Origin: Escherichia phage JSE
DNA length: 64,000 nucleotides
Direction: 5' to 3' (one strand)
Sequence record: EU863408
The number at the start of each line of letters is the position of its first letter. Position 1 is the first letter of the stretch. Below the pieces are notes generated by a model. It worked only from the letters and a program-made list of their open reading frames with translations, had not been told where the DNA came from and ran no database searches. Below are positions 46,917 to 51,430 of this stretch, one piece after another. The position numbers were made by a program, and so were the translations under genes.

Positions 46917-47246
46917 TCAAACCAGCTTGAGATAGTTTTCGTTAACGTTTTCTTCTGTGATCTCGGTTTTAAACTCATTACCAACATCAGGAGAAACATA
47001 ATAGCGTTCGGAATAATCACGCCACATTTTCAGTAGGCTGACACCAACATTAACACCATTTTCCCAGAAACGGAAGATAATTTTATTTGCGGTGTAGCGG
47101 TAATCGCTTTGAATCAAGCTGCCATCACCGCGACGTGATTCATAAACCGTAATACATTCACGGTTAGCGGCTTTAAGACATTCTTCAATAGTGCCGCATG
47201 AGATAATTTCGGTTGAGTCGTTTACGATTTGTTCTACAGTCCACAT
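46917..47246 (-). CDS. hypothetical protein
   Basis: 109 aa ORF with promoter cassette at 47278-47305. Confidence 0.5.
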   Translation of the reverse strand: MWTVEQIVNDSTEIISCGTIEECLKAANRECITVYESRRGDGSLIQSDYRYTANKIIFRFWENGVNVGVSLLKMWRDYSERYYVSPDVGNEFKTEITEENVNENYLKLV

Positions 47247-47277
47247 AATATAATCCTCTCTTTGTTTCGATGTGTGT

Positions 47278-47305
47278 ATTATACATTACCACATAAGCAT
47301 GTCAA
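47278..47305 (-). promoter_or_regulatory. early promoter (TTGACA-N16-TATAAT)
   Basis: Precedes ORF 46917..47246. Confidence 0.5.
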
Positions 47306-47332
47306 CACCTTTTTCATAAATTTTTAGGCAAT

Positions 47333-47360
47333 AAAAAAGCCTCCCCGAAGGAAGGCTTTA
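47333..47360 (-). terminator. terminator after gene 32
   Basis: AGCCTTCC-TTCG-GGGAGGCT hairpin then T-run on minus strand. Confidence 0.6.
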
Positions 47361-47367
47361 AAATTCA

Positions 47368-48342
47368 TTACATCCCTAACAGAGCGTCAAGATCATCCAG
47401 ATCAGAAGCGGAGGAAGTACCGCCACCCAGATCCAGCGATGCCATCAGGTCATCAGCGGAAGAATCTAACGCCGTGCTAGCTGCGTTAATACCAACTACA
47501 GTGCTAGCTGCGTTAATACCAGCATCGAATGCATTCATCTGTGCGTCAAAATCGTCAAGCTGGCTGTTAATCGCTGCCGCAGCACTGGAAGCCGCAGCAC
47601 CAGCTACCATAGAAACGCCCATAGTTTTCTTAAATTTGGTTTCCAGTTCATCGAACGGTTTAAACTGGCTAGGCGCTACAATCTCACTCAGGTCAACCAT
47701 GTTTTCCATCAGATATTTCTGATATGCTTCGTCTTCAATTTTCGGAAGCTGTGATTGCTGCATGAAACGAGAATCATCATAGTTCTGGTGTTTATCAACC
47801 TTCTTAGCTTTCAGGAGGAAGTTAGCACCGGAGAACACACAAGTTACATCTACCGGAACTTCGCCCATATCGGTATTCACGTTCACCATTGCAACGATCT
47901 TATCATAAATTTTCTGACCGAAGCGGAATTTGAATACCTTACCTTCATTTTCTGGTGCTTGAGGATCTTTCAGTACCAGAATATTTGCGTAGTAAGAGGC
48001 TTTACGCTTAATCAGTTGCCATTCGGTTTTATCGGTATTGTACAGATCTTTTTCGTTAATATATTTGCACACAGGGCAAGAATCAAAATCACCGTGGGTG
48101 CTGGAGCAGTTTTCCCAATACCATTTGCCATTAACTTTGAAGGAATGGTTTACCAGTTTCACAATCGGCAGACCGTCTTCTGTCTTAGACGGCAGGAAGC
48201 GAATCAGGGCTTCACCGTTACCTGCTGCATCAGTCTTAATCTTCCACTCTTTCGGATCTTCTTTGGAGAAACCGTTGCCACCTTTCAGTGCGGCCAGTTG
48301 AGCTTGCAGTTTGGAAGAATCTTGGCGTTTAAACATATTCAC
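47368..48342 (-). CDS. 32: single-stranded DNA-binding protein gp32
   Basis: Colinear with T4 gp32 (AVIRFLPSK, NEGKVFK.RFG.KI.DKI); Ser/Asp-rich acidic tail. Confidence 0.95.
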
Positions 48343-49086: not shown

Positions 49087-49356
49087 TTAAATATCGAGAG
49101 TGTTGGTCGGTTCGTCGATCACTCCCTTCCTGAGCGTTCTATTTACTATACATTCTTGTGTGATCTTGTCAATAATGGACACCGGAATATACTTCTGATA
49201 GTGACCATATTCGATAGAGTTTTCCTCTACAAACTGCGTTGTCGCTTCAAGATAAGTCAATCCCTCTTCAACAACCAGTTTTTCGATTGCAAGACCGTTT
49301 GCTGTTTTGTTCGCGGCTTTTACCGCATGTTCATTAAGCATTGAACACCCGATCAT
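49087..49356 (-). CDS. 33: late transcription accessory protein gp33
   Basis: Y/SYLEATT.F.EENSI segment as in T4 gp33; start uncertain. Confidence 0.75.
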   Translation of the reverse strand: MIGCSMLNEHAVKAANKTANGLAIEKLVVEEGLTYLEATTQFVEENSIEYGHYQKYIPVSIIDKITQECIVNRTLRKGVIDEPTNTLDI

Positions 49357-49609
49357 AGAGTTCTACCGCTTCGTCGCGTTCTGCTTCGAAGGTTTCGCGC
49401 TGTTGCTGGTGATACAGTTTAAACAGAATGCCCCACATTTTACCATCGACGCCTAATTCTTCTTTAGCACGCTGTTTGATCTCTTTGATCTTATCGCCGT
49501 ATGCTTCTTGAATGGTTTTCTGATCGCTGGCTTCTTTAATCAGTTGTGCCAGGGTATTTCCGTGCACTGCTTCGTCAAATACTACTTTTTCTTTTTTCTG
49601 TTCAGTCAT
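49334..49609 (-). CDS. dsbA: double-stranded DNA-binding protein DsbA
   Basis: 91 aa; FDEA.HG...A..IKEASD and ELGVDGKM segments as in T4 DsbA. Confidence 0.7.
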   Translation of the reverse strand: MTEQKKEKVVFDEAVHGNTLAQLIKEASDQKTIQEAYGDKIKEIKQRAKEELGVDGKMWGILFKLYHQQQRETFEAERDEAVELYDRVFNA

Positions 49610-49613
49610 AATA

Positions 49614-50210
49614 TTAACCCTCTTTCGTCATTAATTGAAAACCACGTTCAGCTTTTGAAATTTCGCTAGGACTTAAATCGTCACCAACATATTCTAGCAT
49701 CATTTCTCGGATAATGTCAAGTGCTTTTTCATCACCTGATTTTAACTCGAACTCAAGTTCATAGTGAGCCTCTCCCATTCTTTCGCCGACTTTGCAATAA
49801 TAGAAAGTGTCTTTGCACATTTCCACTATAGCACCCTCAAGGTCAAGTGTCAATGACTTGCGGTATGTCATTACTTGCAATAAAGGAACGATAAGGTCGG
49901 AGTTTACGCCTAGACTATCAACATAATGATAGAAATCATCCATTGTTGAAAAAGTGATTTCTTCTCGGTTGAATAGTCCAGATTCACTATCACCTATTTT
50001 GACCATAATCAATGATCTATTAACGTCAAGTCGAGCATAAATTCCTTTTCGACGCATTGCATGATCTTCGGTATCATAATAAAATTCGTGTTTTAGAGTG
50101 TTAGCACGATCTACTAGATTGTACCCGTCATACATTGCTACCCACAAATCACAGATTGTTTCGACGCCAATTTGTGAGTGTGCATAGTATTTTAATTCAA
50201 GTTCTTTCAT
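49614..50210 (-). CDS. CYTH-domain (triphosphate tunnel metalloenzyme) protein
   Basis: N-terminal ExExK (KELELK), central RRKG, C-terminal YELEFELK; lies between dsbA and rnh where T4 has no gene. Confidence 0.5.
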   Translation of the reverse strand: MKELELKYYAHSQIGVETICDLWVAMYDGYNLVDRANTLKHEFYYDTEDHAMRRKGIYARLDVNRSLIMVKIGDSESGLFNREEITFSTMDDFYHYVDSLGVNSDLIVPLLQVMTYRKSLTLDLEGAIVEMCKDTFYYCKVGERMGEAHYELEFELKSGDEKALDIIREMMLEYVGDDLSPSEISKAERGFQLMTKEG

Positions 50211-50220
50211 ATGTCAACCC

Positions 50221-51168
50221 TTAGAACTCACCAATTTTCTGCAACATTTTAACTAACGCATTGGTTACAAAATAGTTATAAATTTTACCGCGTGGTGCTG
50301 GTTTAGATTTCTCCCATGCTAACAAAATTTCATATTCGATGTTATCAGGAATAAATTCAAAATCAATAAGTTCGCGGTTTTCGTCAAAGCGTAGTGCTTC
50401 TTCCTCTGTCATCAAAGACTTTGGATCTTCGGCATCGAAAATTTGCTCTAACCATTTGGTTGCAATTGGTTTAGCTCGTTCCCCTTCCAGTCGTGAGATA
50501 ATGAAATCACTACGGCACTTGATAGAAGCTACACCGTCTTTTGCGTCACCCTTAACACATTTTACCATAAGGTCTTTGTAAGGGCTACCATATTTGCATT
50601 TCTTCCATGCTTTCTGTACTGGCGCCCACTGTTTCACGTTTTTGTATTTGTGCAACTGTGTGTAGTCACCATCGCCGGAGTTGATTAGCACCTGGCGACC
50701 TTCTACAGAAAACTTTTTAGTTAACACAGCGATTATATCATCTGCTTCAACTTTGTCAACCTTAATAACGTGATAAGGCATGTTCTCTTTAAACTCTTCG
50801 GTGATCTTATTGATCGCAGCAAAGATCATCTCCCAATCACGCGGATCTGCGTCTCGTTTTTCCTTACGGTTGCGTTTATAGTAAGGGGCGATATCACGTC
50901 GCCAGTAACCTTTACTTGAATCAAAGGCAAGTACCGTAATTGGGTATTGCTCTTTGAATTTTGTCATATTATAACGCATGGTGTCAAGGATAAGATGACG
51001 AATCATGCCTTCATTAATAGGATCTTCCGGTTTAAAGGTATGCGAGATAGTAGCAATCATAAGCTGCGACATATCAATCAAATGCACACCTTCCGGCAGT
51101 TTATCTTCTGGATCATCGAAGAAATCATTAAGTGTAGCGGTAGTTTTTGTAAACGGGTTATACGTCAT
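50221..51168 (-). CDS. rnh: RNase H / FEN-type 5'-3' exonuclease
   Basis: Colinear with T4 RNase H (GYWRRD, MPY.V...DK.EADD.IAVL, GDGD.TQLHKY.NVKQW). Confidence 0.9.
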   Translation of the reverse strand: MTYNPFTKTTATLNDFFDDPEDKLPEGVHLIDMSQLMIATISHTFKPEDPINEGMIRHLILDTMRYNMTKFKEQYPITVLAFDSSKGYWRRDIAPYYKRNRKEKRDADPRDWEMIFAAINKITEEFKENMPYHVIKVDKVEADDIIAVLTKKFSVEGRQVLINSGDGDYTQLHKYKNVKQWAPVQKAWKKCKYGSPYKDLMVKCVKGDAKDGVASIKCRSDFIISRLEGERAKPIATKWLEQIFDAEDPKSLMTEEEALRFDENRELIDFEFIPDNIEYEILLAWEKSKPAPRGKIYNYFVTNALVKMLQKIGEF

Positions 51169-51170
51169 AA

Positions 51171-51356
51171 TTAAGTTCTCTCCACTCTCACAACAACATA
51201 TTCGCCAAACGAGTTAGATACTTCACGATCATACCCGTATTTCTCCATAACTCGCAGAATTGCATTGTTTAATTCGGCACGGAAATAATTATAATCCTTA
51301 TCAGGGATTCTGTCAACTACCCATTTTGCACCTTCTGACAAATCAACTTTAACCAT
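51171..51356 (-). CDS. hypothetical small protein
   Basis: 61 aa ORF between rnh and gene 34. Confidence 0.4.
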   Translation of the reverse strand: MVKVDLSEGAKWVVDRIPDKDYNYFRAELNNAILRVMEKYGYDREVSNSFGEYVVVRVERT

Positions 51357-51394
51357 AATATATCATCCTCTTTTGTTTCTATCAAGCCTCATTT

Positions 51395-51402
51395 TATAAA
51401 TA
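51395..51402 (+). promoter_or_regulatory. T4-type late promoter TATAAATA upstream of gene 34
   Basis: Exact TATAAATA about 29 nt before ATG 51431. Confidence 0.55.
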
Positions 51403-51430
51403 TGAACATACTATAAAAGGAGACCCAATA

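What the first reader, a model, noticed from the sequence alone, without database searches (positions are those of the whole stretch)
49614..50210. CYTH-domain protein inserted between dsbA and rnh
The 198 aa protein starts with the ExExK signature (MKELELK), has a central RRKG and a C-terminal YELEFELK, the hallmark acidic and basic residues of CYTH triphosphate-tunnel enzymes (class IV adenylate cyclase and triphosphatase fold). T4 has no gene at this position. A phage CYTH enzyme could make or destroy a nucleotide second messenger, hydrolyse triphosphates, or process RNA 5' ends.
Basis: inference. Interest (0 to 1): 0.6.

Follow-up and report, generated by a model that had tools for sequence, protein, structure and literature searches.

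The report
Phage YgiF-like triphosphate tunnel enzyme
The gene between rnh and dsbA of this RB49-like coliphage does encode a CYTH (triphosphate tunnel) enzyme, most like the E. coli triphosphatase YgiF and not an adenylate cyclase; this was already noted for RB49, and its role in infection has not been tested.

Summary
The ORF is real: window 49614-50210, minus strand, 198 aa. The window is a Krischvirus (RB49-like) genome and the gene is RB49ORF244c. Its GenBank record already notes "similar to ygiF", and a 2006 paper lists a CYTH hit.

The catalytic set is invariant across the family: E3/E5/K7, R60, K71, R82/E84, R117, D134, E151/E153/E155, K186/R189. I therefore read it as an active two-metal triphosphohydrolase.

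All three sequence markers of class IV adenylate cyclases fail, so cAMP synthesis is not supported.

It differs from YgiF in four ways: no CHAD domain, Asp62 in place of the second Arg of RxR, an added Lys40, and Tyr58 at the position of the aromatic residue that stacks on thiamine in thiamine triphosphatase. The substrate is therefore open.

Two observations are, as far as I found, new. Codons 11-149 form a recombining cassette with at least four ancient alleles inside a 93-100% identical backbone, and only tunnel-facing residues stay fixed. The gene also keeps its place upstream of dsbA in distant T4-like contigs.

Interest is modest.

The parts
49614..50210 (-). CYTH / triphosphate tunnel metalloenzyme gene, 198 aa, orthologue of RB49ORF244c
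50190..50204 (-). Codons E3-L-E5-L-K7: the ExExK motif (metal site 2 and phosphate binding)
   Evidence: Invariant in the family. Aligns with YgiF E4/E6/K8. Role taken from PMC4641920.
50025..50039 (-). Codons Y58-A-R60-L-D62 on strand 3. R60 is the catalytic Arg (YgiF R56). D62 replaces the second Arg (YgiF R58). Y58 sits where thiamine triphosphatase has W53.
   Evidence: MAFFT alignment of 171 sequences: R60 column is R in 147/148 distant relatives and the D62 column is R in 141/148. hhalign gives the same register. All three residues are invariant in the family.
50091..50093 (-). Codon K40: a lysine specific to the phage clade, on strand 2 and in register with the tunnel-facing Y44 and D46. 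It may compensate for the R-to-D change at position 62.
   Evidence: K in 22/22 family members and in P0044 and P0045. Distant relatives have L/Q/M/I here. The compensation idea is inference.
49998..50000 (-). Codon K71 (YgiF K69)
   Evidence: Invariant. Role from PMC4641920.
49959..49967 (-). Codons R82-E-E84 (YgiF R81 and E83)
   Evidence: Invariant.
49860..49862 (-). Codon R117 (YgiF R126)
   Evidence: R in 148/148 distant relatives and invariant in the family.
49740..49760 (-). Codons E151-L-E153-F-E155-L-K157. E153 is the metal 1 ligand (YgiF E160) and E155 the metal 2 ligand (YgiF E162).
   Evidence: Roles from PMC4641920. E155 is Glu, not the Ala of class IV cyclases.
49644..49658 (-). 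Codons S185-K186-A-E-R189: start of the C-terminal plug helix (YgiF S190, K191, R194)
49763..50180 (-). Variable cassette (codons 11-149). It occurs as at least four ancient alleles in otherwise 93-100% identical Krischvirus backbones.
   Evidence: Sliding nucleotide identity to Skers and to the P0042 contig falls to 0.44-0.69 here, against 0.93-1.00 in most flanking windows. The breakpoints are visible in the alignment. Synonymous sites are saturated, pS about 0.8.
50218..50222 (-). AAGGG Shine-Dalgarno-like sequence, overlapping the rnh stop codon (50221-50223)
   Evidence: Read directly from the sequence.
50732..50759 (-). Perfect sigma-70 consensus (TTGACA-16-TATAAT, TG-extended) inside rnh. 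It is the nearest upstream promoter-like site that could transcribe the whole CYTH gene.
   Evidence: RB49-type early promoters match the sigma-70 consensus (PMC2839356). Use of this site is inferred.
50189..50217 (-). Promoter-like site whose -35 hexamer is the 6 nt just before the ATG and whose -10 lies in codons 6-8. A transcript from it could not encode the full protein.
   Evidence: The -35 hexamer is also conserved in the distant contigs L003 and L011. Function is unknown.
49691..49720 (-). Promoter-like site (TTGACA-18-TAGAAT, TG-extended) in the 3' part of the gene, with its -10 hexamer ending about 80 nt upstream of the dsbA start. Possible early promoter for dsbA-33-59.
   Evidence: Inference only.
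50221..51168 (-). rnh (T4-type RNase H / 5'-3' exonuclease), upstream neighbour
49334..49609 (-). dsbA (dsDNA-binding late transcription factor), downstream neighbour. Its Shine-Dalgarno sequence lies in the last codons of the CYTH gene.

Best explanation
The gene encodes a single-domain triphosphate tunnel metalloenzyme of the CYTH superfamily, closest to the catalytic domain of the E. coli inorganic triphosphatase YgiF.

Proposed mechanism, by analogy with YgiF and AtTTM3. A triphosphate group with one Mg2+/Mn2+ binds in the centre of an eight-stranded tunnel. It is held by K7, R60, K71, R82, R117, K186 and R189, and by E153 (metal 1). E3, E5 and E155 hold a second metal that activates water to attack the terminal phosphate, while R60 helps the leaving group. 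The product is orthophosphate plus the diphosphate form of the substrate.

The enzyme is not a cyclase.

It is probably made early, co-transcribed with rnh, dsbA, 33 and 59 from sigma-70-type promoters, as a conserved accessory gene of Krischvirus and related T4-like phages.

The physiological substrate is not established. Inorganic triphosphate is the default by homology. However, the clade-specific Tyr58, Asp62 and Lys40 inside the tunnel leave room for an organic triphosphate such as a nucleotide, thiamine triphosphate or a 5'-triphosphate RNA end.

Shown here: fold, conserved catalytic residues, synteny, purifying selection. Inferred: activity, timing of expression, substrate.
For: Family and fold:
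- Pfam CYTH scores above its gathering cut-off.
- The family profile finds YgiF as the only PDB sequence hit.
- hhalign against a YgiF-anchored alignment of 147 sequences gives probability 99.9%, E 3.6e-36, over 185 columns.
- The AF2 model has pLDDT 92 and pTM 0.86, with eight long strands and a C-terminal helix.

Catalytic residues:
- E3, E5, K7, R60, K71, R82, E84, R117, D134, E151, E153, E155, K186 and R189 are invariant in 22 family members spanning 48-96% identity. They align with the YgiF residues shown by mutation and crystallography to bind metals and substrate.
- Within the variable core, strand residues in register with the catalytic ones are invariant at 19 of 30 positions. The alternating, outward-facing positions are invariant at 0 of 32 (Fisher p about 1e-8).

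Gene status and context:
- dN/dS is about 0.3.
- The gene is present in all 57 matching phage records. It sits in the same position in distant contigs L003 and L011.
- Consensus sigma-70 promoters lie upstream on the same strand, and RB49 early promoters are of this type.

Biochemistry of the closest enzyme: YgiF is a Mg-dependent, specific PPPase (PMC3440374).
Against: - No biochemical or genetic data exist for this protein or any close relative; five full-text searches aimed at this question found none.
- The single-sequence Pfam score is only 1.7 bits above the cut-off.
- The second Arg of the RxR strand, conserved in 141/148 distant relatives, is Asp here. There is no CHAD domain. PPPi specificity therefore cannot simply be transferred from YgiF.
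- YgiF's own physiological role is doubtful.
- Residue orientation was inferred from strand parity and alignment.
- T4 does without this gene, so it is not needed for core replication.
Confidence: 0.7

Rival explanations
1. It is a class IV (CyaB-type) adenylate or nucleotidyl cyclase that makes cAMP or another cyclic nucleotide during infection, as three GenBank records annotate it.
Against: All three discriminating markers from PMC8233210 fail:
- There is no HF motif. The protein has only two residues before ExExK, and the ORF cannot be extended.
- The last strand has E153-x-E155, not ExA.
- The first Arg of RxR, the 'gatekeeper' against the cyclase orientation, is kept as R60.

In addition, YgiF, the closest enzyme, has no detectable cyclase activity. 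The cyclase matches are much weaker than the YgiF match.
Confidence: 0.04
2. It removes the gamma-phosphate from 5'-triphosphate RNA ends. The targets could be the pppAC... primers that its neighbour RNase H must remove, or host mRNAs, to speed their decay.
For: - The gene is wedged into a replication and transcription operon, directly after rnh, in three divergent lineages.
- Tyr58, at the position of thiamine triphosphatase W53 (which stacks on the thiazole ring there), could stack on a base. This last point is inference.
Against: - There is no Pfam mRNA_triPase hit.
- Similarity to RNA triphosphatases is far below that to YgiF.
- Gene adjacency in T4-like phages is weak evidence of shared function, and T4 processes primers without such an enzyme.
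- No RNA-binding surface was identified.
Confidence: 0.1
3. It is a counter-defence or host-manipulation enzyme that destroys a small organic triphosphate. Candidates are a toxic nucleotide analogue such as the ddhNTPs made by prokaryotic viperins, an alarmone such as pppGpp or thiamine triphosphate, or a triphosphate-bearing immune signal.
For: - It is an accessory gene that is absent from T4.
- It diverges much more than its neighbours: 36-44% against about 75-80% identity across lineages, and 57-58% against 93-99% within Krischvirus.
- Several ancient alleles are exchanged between near-identical backbones while the tunnel interior stays fixed. Genes at the phage-host interface often show this pattern.
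- The tunnel carries clade-specific residues: Y58 (at the thiamine triphosphatase aromatic position), D62 and K40.
Against: - There is no match to any PADLOC defence model.
- No paper links CYTH to anti-defence.
- The allele pattern is equally explained by neutral surface drift plus recombination at the two conserved motif-coding stretches.
- dN/dS of about 0.3 gives no sign of positive selection.
Confidence: 0.12
4. It is a catalytically dead CYTH fold used only as a binding protein or sponge, or as a structural partner like the Mediator Med18/Med20 TTM-like folds.
For: TTM-like folds without catalysis exist; Mediator subunits appear among the fold hits. One canonical Arg is lost (D62).
Against: Every metal ligand and the catalytic Arg are invariant across alleles that are only about 40% identical in the core. 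That is not expected for a non-enzyme.
Confidence: 0.03

Closest known systems
E. coli YgiF, N-terminal TTM domain (PDB 5A60/5A61), a specific inorganic triphosphatase
   Different: - There is no CHAD domain. The phage protein ends after the plug helix at 198 aa, against 433 aa for YgiF.
- YgiF R58 is Asp62 here, YgiF L36 is Lys40, and YgiF G54 is Tyr58.
- At 23% identity it is not a recent capture of the host gene.
- Its activity has not been tested.
Single-domain bacterial and archaeal TTM triphosphatases (NeuTTM, CthTTM, SaTTM, BH2851)
   Different: Sequence relationship is weaker than to YgiF-type proteins. These enzymes keep RxR and have a small residue at the Tyr58 position.
Class IV adenylate cyclase (Aeromonas CyaB, Yersinia YpAC-IV)
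   Same: Same superfamily and fold. This is the origin of the 'adenylate cyclase' label in some phage records.
Mammalian thiamine triphosphatase (ThTPase)
   Different: The motif is YxRxD, not W/YxRxR. The Tyr is not kept in the more distant phage relatives P0044 (Val) and P0045 (Ile). I did not test any other part of the ThTPase thiamine pocket.
Cet1-type RNA triphosphatases of fungi and large DNA viruses
   Same: Same tunnel fold and the same chemistry of gamma-phosphate removal. They appear among the viral fold hits.

Membership tests
CYTH / triphosphate tunnel metalloenzyme superfamily (Pfam PF01928) | Match to the family profile above the curated cut-off | tested here: met
   24.9 bits against gathering score 23.2, E 2e-5. 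Most family members carry precomputed PF01928. hhalign 99.9% to a YgiF-anchored alignment.
CYTH / triphosphate tunnel metalloenzyme superfamily (Pfam PF01928) | Eight-stranded beta tunnel closed by a C-terminal plug helix | tested here: met
CYTH / triphosphate tunnel metalloenzyme superfamily (Pfam PF01928) | N-terminal ExExK motif | tested here: met
   E3-L-E5-L-K7, invariant.
CYTH / triphosphate tunnel metalloenzyme superfamily (Pfam PF01928) | ExE on the last strand (metal 1 and metal 2 ligands) | tested here: met
   E153 and E155 align with YgiF E160 and E162.
CYTH / triphosphate tunnel metalloenzyme superfamily (Pfam PF01928) | Basic tunnel residues, including the invariant catalytic Arg of the RxR strand | tested here: met
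   R60 = YgiF R56, K71 = K69, R82 = R81, R117 = R126. The second Arg of RxR is Asp62, a departure from the norm; the equivalent AtTTM3 R54A mutation did not abolish activity.
CYTH / triphosphate tunnel metalloenzyme superfamily (Pfam PF01928) | Divalent-metal-dependent hydrolysis of a triphosphate | not testable with these tools
   Needs purified protein.
YgiF-type CYTH-CHAD inorganic triphosphatases (cluster 1 of PMC8233210) | C-terminal CHAD (polyphosphate-binding) domain | tested here: not met
   The protein is 198 aa and ends after the plug helix. No CHAD hit in Pfam.
YgiF-type CYTH-CHAD inorganic triphosphatases (cluster 1 of PMC8233210) | The tunnel domain is closest to YgiF among characterised enzymes | tested here: met
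YgiF-type CYTH-CHAD inorganic triphosphatases (cluster 1 of PMC8233210) | Specificity for inorganic triphosphate | not testable with these tools
   The tunnel differs at D62, K40 and Y58, so specificity cannot be inferred.
Class IV adenylate cyclase (CyaB-like) | HF motif four residues before ExExK (HFxxxxExExK) | tested here: not met
   Only M1-K2 precede ExExK, and no in-frame upstream start exists. Criterion.
Class IV adenylate cyclase (CyaB-like) | Second Glu of the last-strand ExE replaced by Ala | tested here: not met
   E155 is Glu in 22/22 family members.
Class IV adenylate cyclase (CyaB-like) | First Arg of RxR replaced by a small residue | tested here: not met
   R60 is kept. The register was confirmed by MAFFT and hhalign. 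An earlier pairwise HMMER register that put Tyr58 at this position was a low-confidence stretch and is rejected.
Class IV adenylate cyclase (CyaB-like) | Formation of 3',5'-cAMP from ATP | not testable with these tools
   Needs an enzyme assay.
Thiamine triphosphatase (cluster 8 of PMC8233210) | W/YxRxR motif (aromatic residue stacking on the thiazole ring, plus two Arg) | tested here: inconclusive
   Y58-A-R60-L-D62: the aromatic residue and the first Arg are present, but the second Arg is Asp. Tyr is replaced by Val or Ile in P0044 and P0045.
Cet1-like RNA triphosphatase (Pfam PF02940) | Match to the mRNA_triPase profile | tested here: not met
   No hit at E <= 1. Only distant fold similarity.

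The most novel reading that the evidence does not exclude
The enzyme is a phage counter-measure that hydrolyses a specific organic triphosphate made or used by the host during infection, for example a chain-terminating nucleotide analogue, an alarmone or a 5'-ppp RNA end. Under this reading, the exchange of ancient surface-divergent alleles between near-identical genomes reflects selection to escape host recognition of the enzyme.
Probability: 0.12. Interest if true: 0.7.

Novelty: already known. Interest (0 to 1): 0.28.

Why it matters
As a fold assignment, this adds little. The CYTH/YgiF similarity of this RB49 gene has been public since 2003-2006.

What is useful:
1. The 'adenylate cyclase' label carried by some Krischvirus records can be rejected on explicit sequence criteria.
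2. The protein defines a small T4-like phage clade of YgiF-like enzymes. In the databases searched it occurs only in Krischvirus records and in metagenomic contigs with the same gene order. Its tunnel is altered (R-to-D at position 62, added K40, Y58), so its substrate may differ from PPPi.
3. The gene is a clear example of cassette-type allele exchange inside a conserved replication and late-transcription module.

No TTM enzyme has a known role in phage infection, and even YgiF's physiological role is unclear. A simple biochemical and genetic study would therefore be informative, but nothing here points to a new kind of system.

Tried and rejected
1. Pairwise and family HMMER alignments to YgiF placed Tyr58 opposite the catalytic Arg56. 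That would have meant loss of the catalytic Arg. A 171-sequence MAFFT alignment and hhalign both shift this low-confidence stretch by two residues, giving R60 = R56. I adopted the latter register.

2. NCBIfam and PADLOC scans gave no hit.

3. Searches for closer relatives:
- The word-indexed search found only Krischvirus-type proteins down to 45% identity.
- The exhaustive profile search found 3 representatives at E <= 1e-30, then a gap to generic CYTH and CYTH-CHAD proteins.
- IMG/VR scans with P0044 and P0045 found nothing.
- tblastn of P0044 against isolated phages returned only Krischvirus.

4. Positive selection as the cause of the variable core is not supported. Synonymous sites are saturated between alleles, and dN/dS is about 0.3 for the one comparable pair.

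5. An idea that the extreme conservation of the C-terminal 47 codons reflects a special constraint is rejected. That segment simply belongs to the conserved backbone, and it diverges normally in the distant contig L003 (pS 0.67).

6. Five full-text literature searches for experimental work on phage CYTH enzymes or a CYTH link to anti-defence found none.

7. I could not inspect the model's coordinates. Side-chain orientation and the K40-D62 pairing are therefore inferred from strand register only.

Full report
**Observation.** The window holds a 198-aa ORF at 49614..50210 on the minus strand, beginning MKELELKYYA.
- It starts 10 nt after the stop codon of rnh (50221..51168), behind an AAGGG ribosome-binding sequence. 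It ends 4 nt before the start of dsbA (49334..49609), whose own ribosome-binding site lies in the last CYTH codons.
- Pfam and PHROG scans confirm the identity of the neighbours: RNaseH_C with 5_3_exonuc_N, and Phage_DsbA.
- The whole minus-strand block reads ORF61 - rnh - CYTH - dsbA - 33 - 59 - 32. Gene 34 diverges on the plus strand.

**Source and prior knowledge.** The region is 96-99% identical in nucleotides to RB49-like coliphages of the genus Krischvirus. All 57 phage records that match the region also encode the protein.
- The RB49 orthologue, RB49ORF244c, is 98% identical.
- Nolan et al. 2006 list RB49ORF244c with a CYTH-domain hit at E 0.0026 (PMC1524935).
- A few records name it 'inorganic triphosphatase' (Ec_Makalu_001 and 002) or 'adenylate cyclase' (PHB13, AV108, KMB43). 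Most say 'hypothetical protein'.
- The fold assignment is therefore not new. I found no paper with biochemical or genetic data on it.

**Is it really a CYTH / TTM protein?** Yes.
- Pfam CYTH scores 24.9 bits against a cut-off of 23.2.
- A profile of 22 family members finds E. coli YgiF as its only PDB sequence hit.
- hhalign of that family against an independently built alignment of YgiF plus 146 distant relatives gives probability 99.9%, E 3.6e-36, over 185 columns.
- AlphaFold2 with the family alignment gives pLDDT 92 and pTM 0.86, with eight long strands and a C-terminal helix.
- Foldseek's top hit is YgiF 5a60 (E 6.9e-13, TM 0.76).

**Active site.** Published structures and mutants of YgiF and AtTTM3 define a two-metal mechanism (PMC4641920).
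- YgiF E160 and the triphosphate hold metal 1.
- E4, E6 and E162 hold metal 2 and the attacking water.
- R56 is the invariant catalytic Arg, and K69 helps to bind substrate.

In a 171-sequence MAFFT alignment and in hhalign these residues correspond to E153, E3, E5, E155, R60 and K71 of the phage protein. These, together with K7, R82, E84, R117, D134, E151, K186 and R189, are invariant in family members that are only 48-96% identical overall.

An earlier pairwise HMMER alignment had put Tyr58 opposite R56. That stretch had low posterior confidence, and the two profile methods overrule it.

Those residues vary within the family and sit before strand 3.

**Which kind of CYTH enzyme?** Vogt et al. 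2021 give explicit markers (PMC8233210). Class IV adenylate cyclases have an HF motif four residues before ExExK, ExA instead of ExE on the last strand, and a small residue in place of the first Arg of RxR.
- The phage protein has only two residues before ExExK and cannot be extended upstream.
- It has E153-x-E155.
- It keeps R60.

All three cyclase markers fail, so the 'adenylate cyclase' annotations are not supported. YgiF itself is a specific, Mg-dependent PPPase. It does not hydrolyse ATP, GTP, ITP, PPi or long polyP, it hydrolyses thiamine triphosphate only slowly, and it has no detectable cyclase activity (PMC3440374).

By homology the default activity is removal of the terminal phosphate from a triphosphate. 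Three clade-specific, invariant, tunnel-register residues argue against simply copying YgiF's specificity:
- Asp62 replaces the second Arg of RxR, which is R in 141/148 distant relatives.
- Lys40 replaces a hydrophobic residue on the neighbouring strand. This may be a relocated positive charge.
- Tyr58 occupies the position where most CYTH enzymes have Ala, Gly or Ser, and where thiamine triphosphatase has the Trp that stacks on the thiazole ring.

The motif is thus YxRxD, a partial match to the W/YxRxR signature. There is no CHAD domain.

**Distribution and evolution.**
- The family is very small. The word-indexed search of 5.8 billion proteins found 43 clusters, all at least 45% identical.
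- The exhaustive profile search of 1.84 billion representatives found two at E <= 1e-30 and one more at 1.2e-30. After that there is a gap to generic single-domain CYTH and CYTH-CHAD proteins at E >= 1e-15.
- Every relative whose context could be read sits in the same place:
  - rnh-CYTH-dsbA-33-59 for P0042 (L004-L006);
  - rnh-CYTH-dsbA-33, on a short contig, for P0043 (L003);
  - CYTH-dsbA-33 for P0044 (L011).
- In the two distant contigs the neighbours are 74-80% identical to the window's proteins, whereas the CYTH protein is 44% and 36% identical.

Within Krischvirus the contrast is sharper.
- Phage Skers and the P0042 contigs are 93-100% identical in nucleotides across most of rnh, dsbA, 33 and 59. 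Between about 50180 and 49763 (codons 11-149) identity drops to 0.44-0.69.
- The Phi1 type is an intermediate allele, with 0.73-0.98 nucleotide identity across this stretch.
- Between allele types, synonymous sites are saturated (pS about 0.8) and core amino-acid identity is about 42%. For RB49 against Phi1, dN/dS is about 0.3.
- These are therefore old alleles moved between nearly identical backbones by recombination, not products of rapid positive selection.
- The breakpoints fall in the two stretches that encode ExExK...Y and Y-ExExExK. These are the only segments similar enough between alleles to support homologous exchange.
- Inside the variable core, strand positions in register with catalytic residues are invariant at 19 of 30 sites. 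Alternating, outward-facing positions are invariant at 0 of 32. The tunnel is held fixed while the surface is free to vary.

**Expression (inferred).** The minus strand of the window carries 26 TTGACA-N16-18-TAnnnT sites against one on the plus strand. RB49-type early promoters are known to match the sigma-70 consensus (PMC2839356).
- Perfect consensus sites at 51316 and 50759, and a weaker one at 51385, lie upstream and could transcribe the gene early together with rnh.
- Three further sites lie at or within the gene, at 50217, 49853 and 49720. They could only serve the downstream genes dsbA, 33 and 59.
- The -35 hexamer at 50217-50212, immediately before the ATG, is conserved even in the distant contigs. 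Whether any of these sites is used is untested.

**Mechanism and rivals.**
- Best explanation (confidence about 0.7): an active, early-expressed, two-metal triphosphohydrolase of the YgiF type. PPPi is the default substrate, but an organic triphosphate is possible.
- Class IV cyclase, about 0.04: fails all three markers.
- RNA or primer 5'-triphosphatase, about 0.10: suggested only by fold relatives and by adjacency to rnh.
- Counter-defence or host-manipulation hydrolase of a specific small triphosphate, about 0.12: suggested by accessory status, strong divergence, allele exchange and the altered tunnel, but with no direct evidence, no PADLOC match and no literature link.
- Non-catalytic binder, about 0.03: contradicted by the invariant catalytic set.

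**Verdict.** The assignment is already in public records. The refinements made here are the explicit rejection of cyclase status, the altered RxR strand, the conserved synteny in distant T4-like phages and the cassette-like allele exchange. These are modest additions. The physiological substrate remains the open question.

Noticed in passing
window 23609, 25500, 25744, 29224, 30640, 31034 (minus strand; coordinate of the first base of the -35 hexamer): Six promoter-like sites have a G/C-stemmed palindrome (TTGACA-GGGGATC...GATCCCC-TATAAT) filling the spacer between the -35 and -10 hexamers. They look like the published PeSL (promoter-early stem-loop) cassettes of RB49 and Phi1 that mediate modular shuffling (PMC2839356).
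   Followed up: partly
window, whole minus strand against plus strand: There are 26 TTGACA-N16-18-TAnnnT sites on the minus strand and 1 on the plus strand. TTGACA alone occurs 46 and 16 times, against about 20 expected per strand. Several sites lie inside coding sequences of the replication block: 51316 in ORF61, 50759 in rnh and 49172 in gene 33.
   Followed up: partly
window 50217-50189, 49853-49825, 49720-49691 (minus strand): Three sigma-70-like sites lie at or inside the CYTH gene. The TTGACA directly before the ATG is conserved in distant contigs L003 and L011. The TTGACA encoding L120-T121 recurs in the RB49-type, P0042-type and P0043 alleles even though synonymous sites are saturated. 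This hints at selection on the DNA sequence for internal promoters that serve dsbA, 33 and 59.
   Followed up: partly
window 50322-50411 (inside rnh): A short divergent patch in rnh. At 50322-50366 nucleotide identity is about 0.60-0.64 to RB49, Skers and Phi1 but 0.96 to the P0042 contig. At 50367-50411 only Skers is reduced, to 0.80. The rest of rnh is mostly 0.9-1.0 identical. This looks like a small mosaic exchange.
   Followed up: no
window 47246-47368 (between gene 32 and the 109-aa ORF at 46917-47246): RB49 carries a 485-aa gene, RB49ORF239c, between gene 32 and ORF238c. It is absent from this window and from PHB13, so it is an insertion or deletion difference among Krischvirus genomes.
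   Followed up: no
phage records KFS-EC, ELT4, FL15, PHB13, G37-3 and FL20, equivalent to window about 51360-51430: These relatives match the query in two pieces over a stretch about 550 bp longer than the query. In ELT4, FL15 and PHB13 a homing endonuclease gene is annotated there; in PHB13 it lies between gene 34 and the 61-aa ORF. It is absent from this window. Skers has an HNH endonuclease gene between 59 and 32.
   Followed up: no
phage vB_EcoM_G2494 (MK327935.1), hits H54 and H117: The CYTH orthologue is split into two pieces and two annotated CDSs. This is a frameshift: either a pseudogene or a sequencing error.
   Followed up: no
window 51171-51356 (minus strand): A 61-aa ORF upstream of rnh (phrog_3594, unknown function; RB49ORF246c) is conserved in Krischvirus and has no T4 counterpart at this position.
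   Followed up: no
protein P0049 (462 aa, metagenomic; a cluster member is named 'AAA family ATPase [Bacilli bacterium]'): One distant relative fuses an N-terminal CYTH domain to a C-terminal P-loop kinase- or ATPase-like domain (GTPRAGKTT). This architecture differs from CYTH-CHAD.
   Followed up: no
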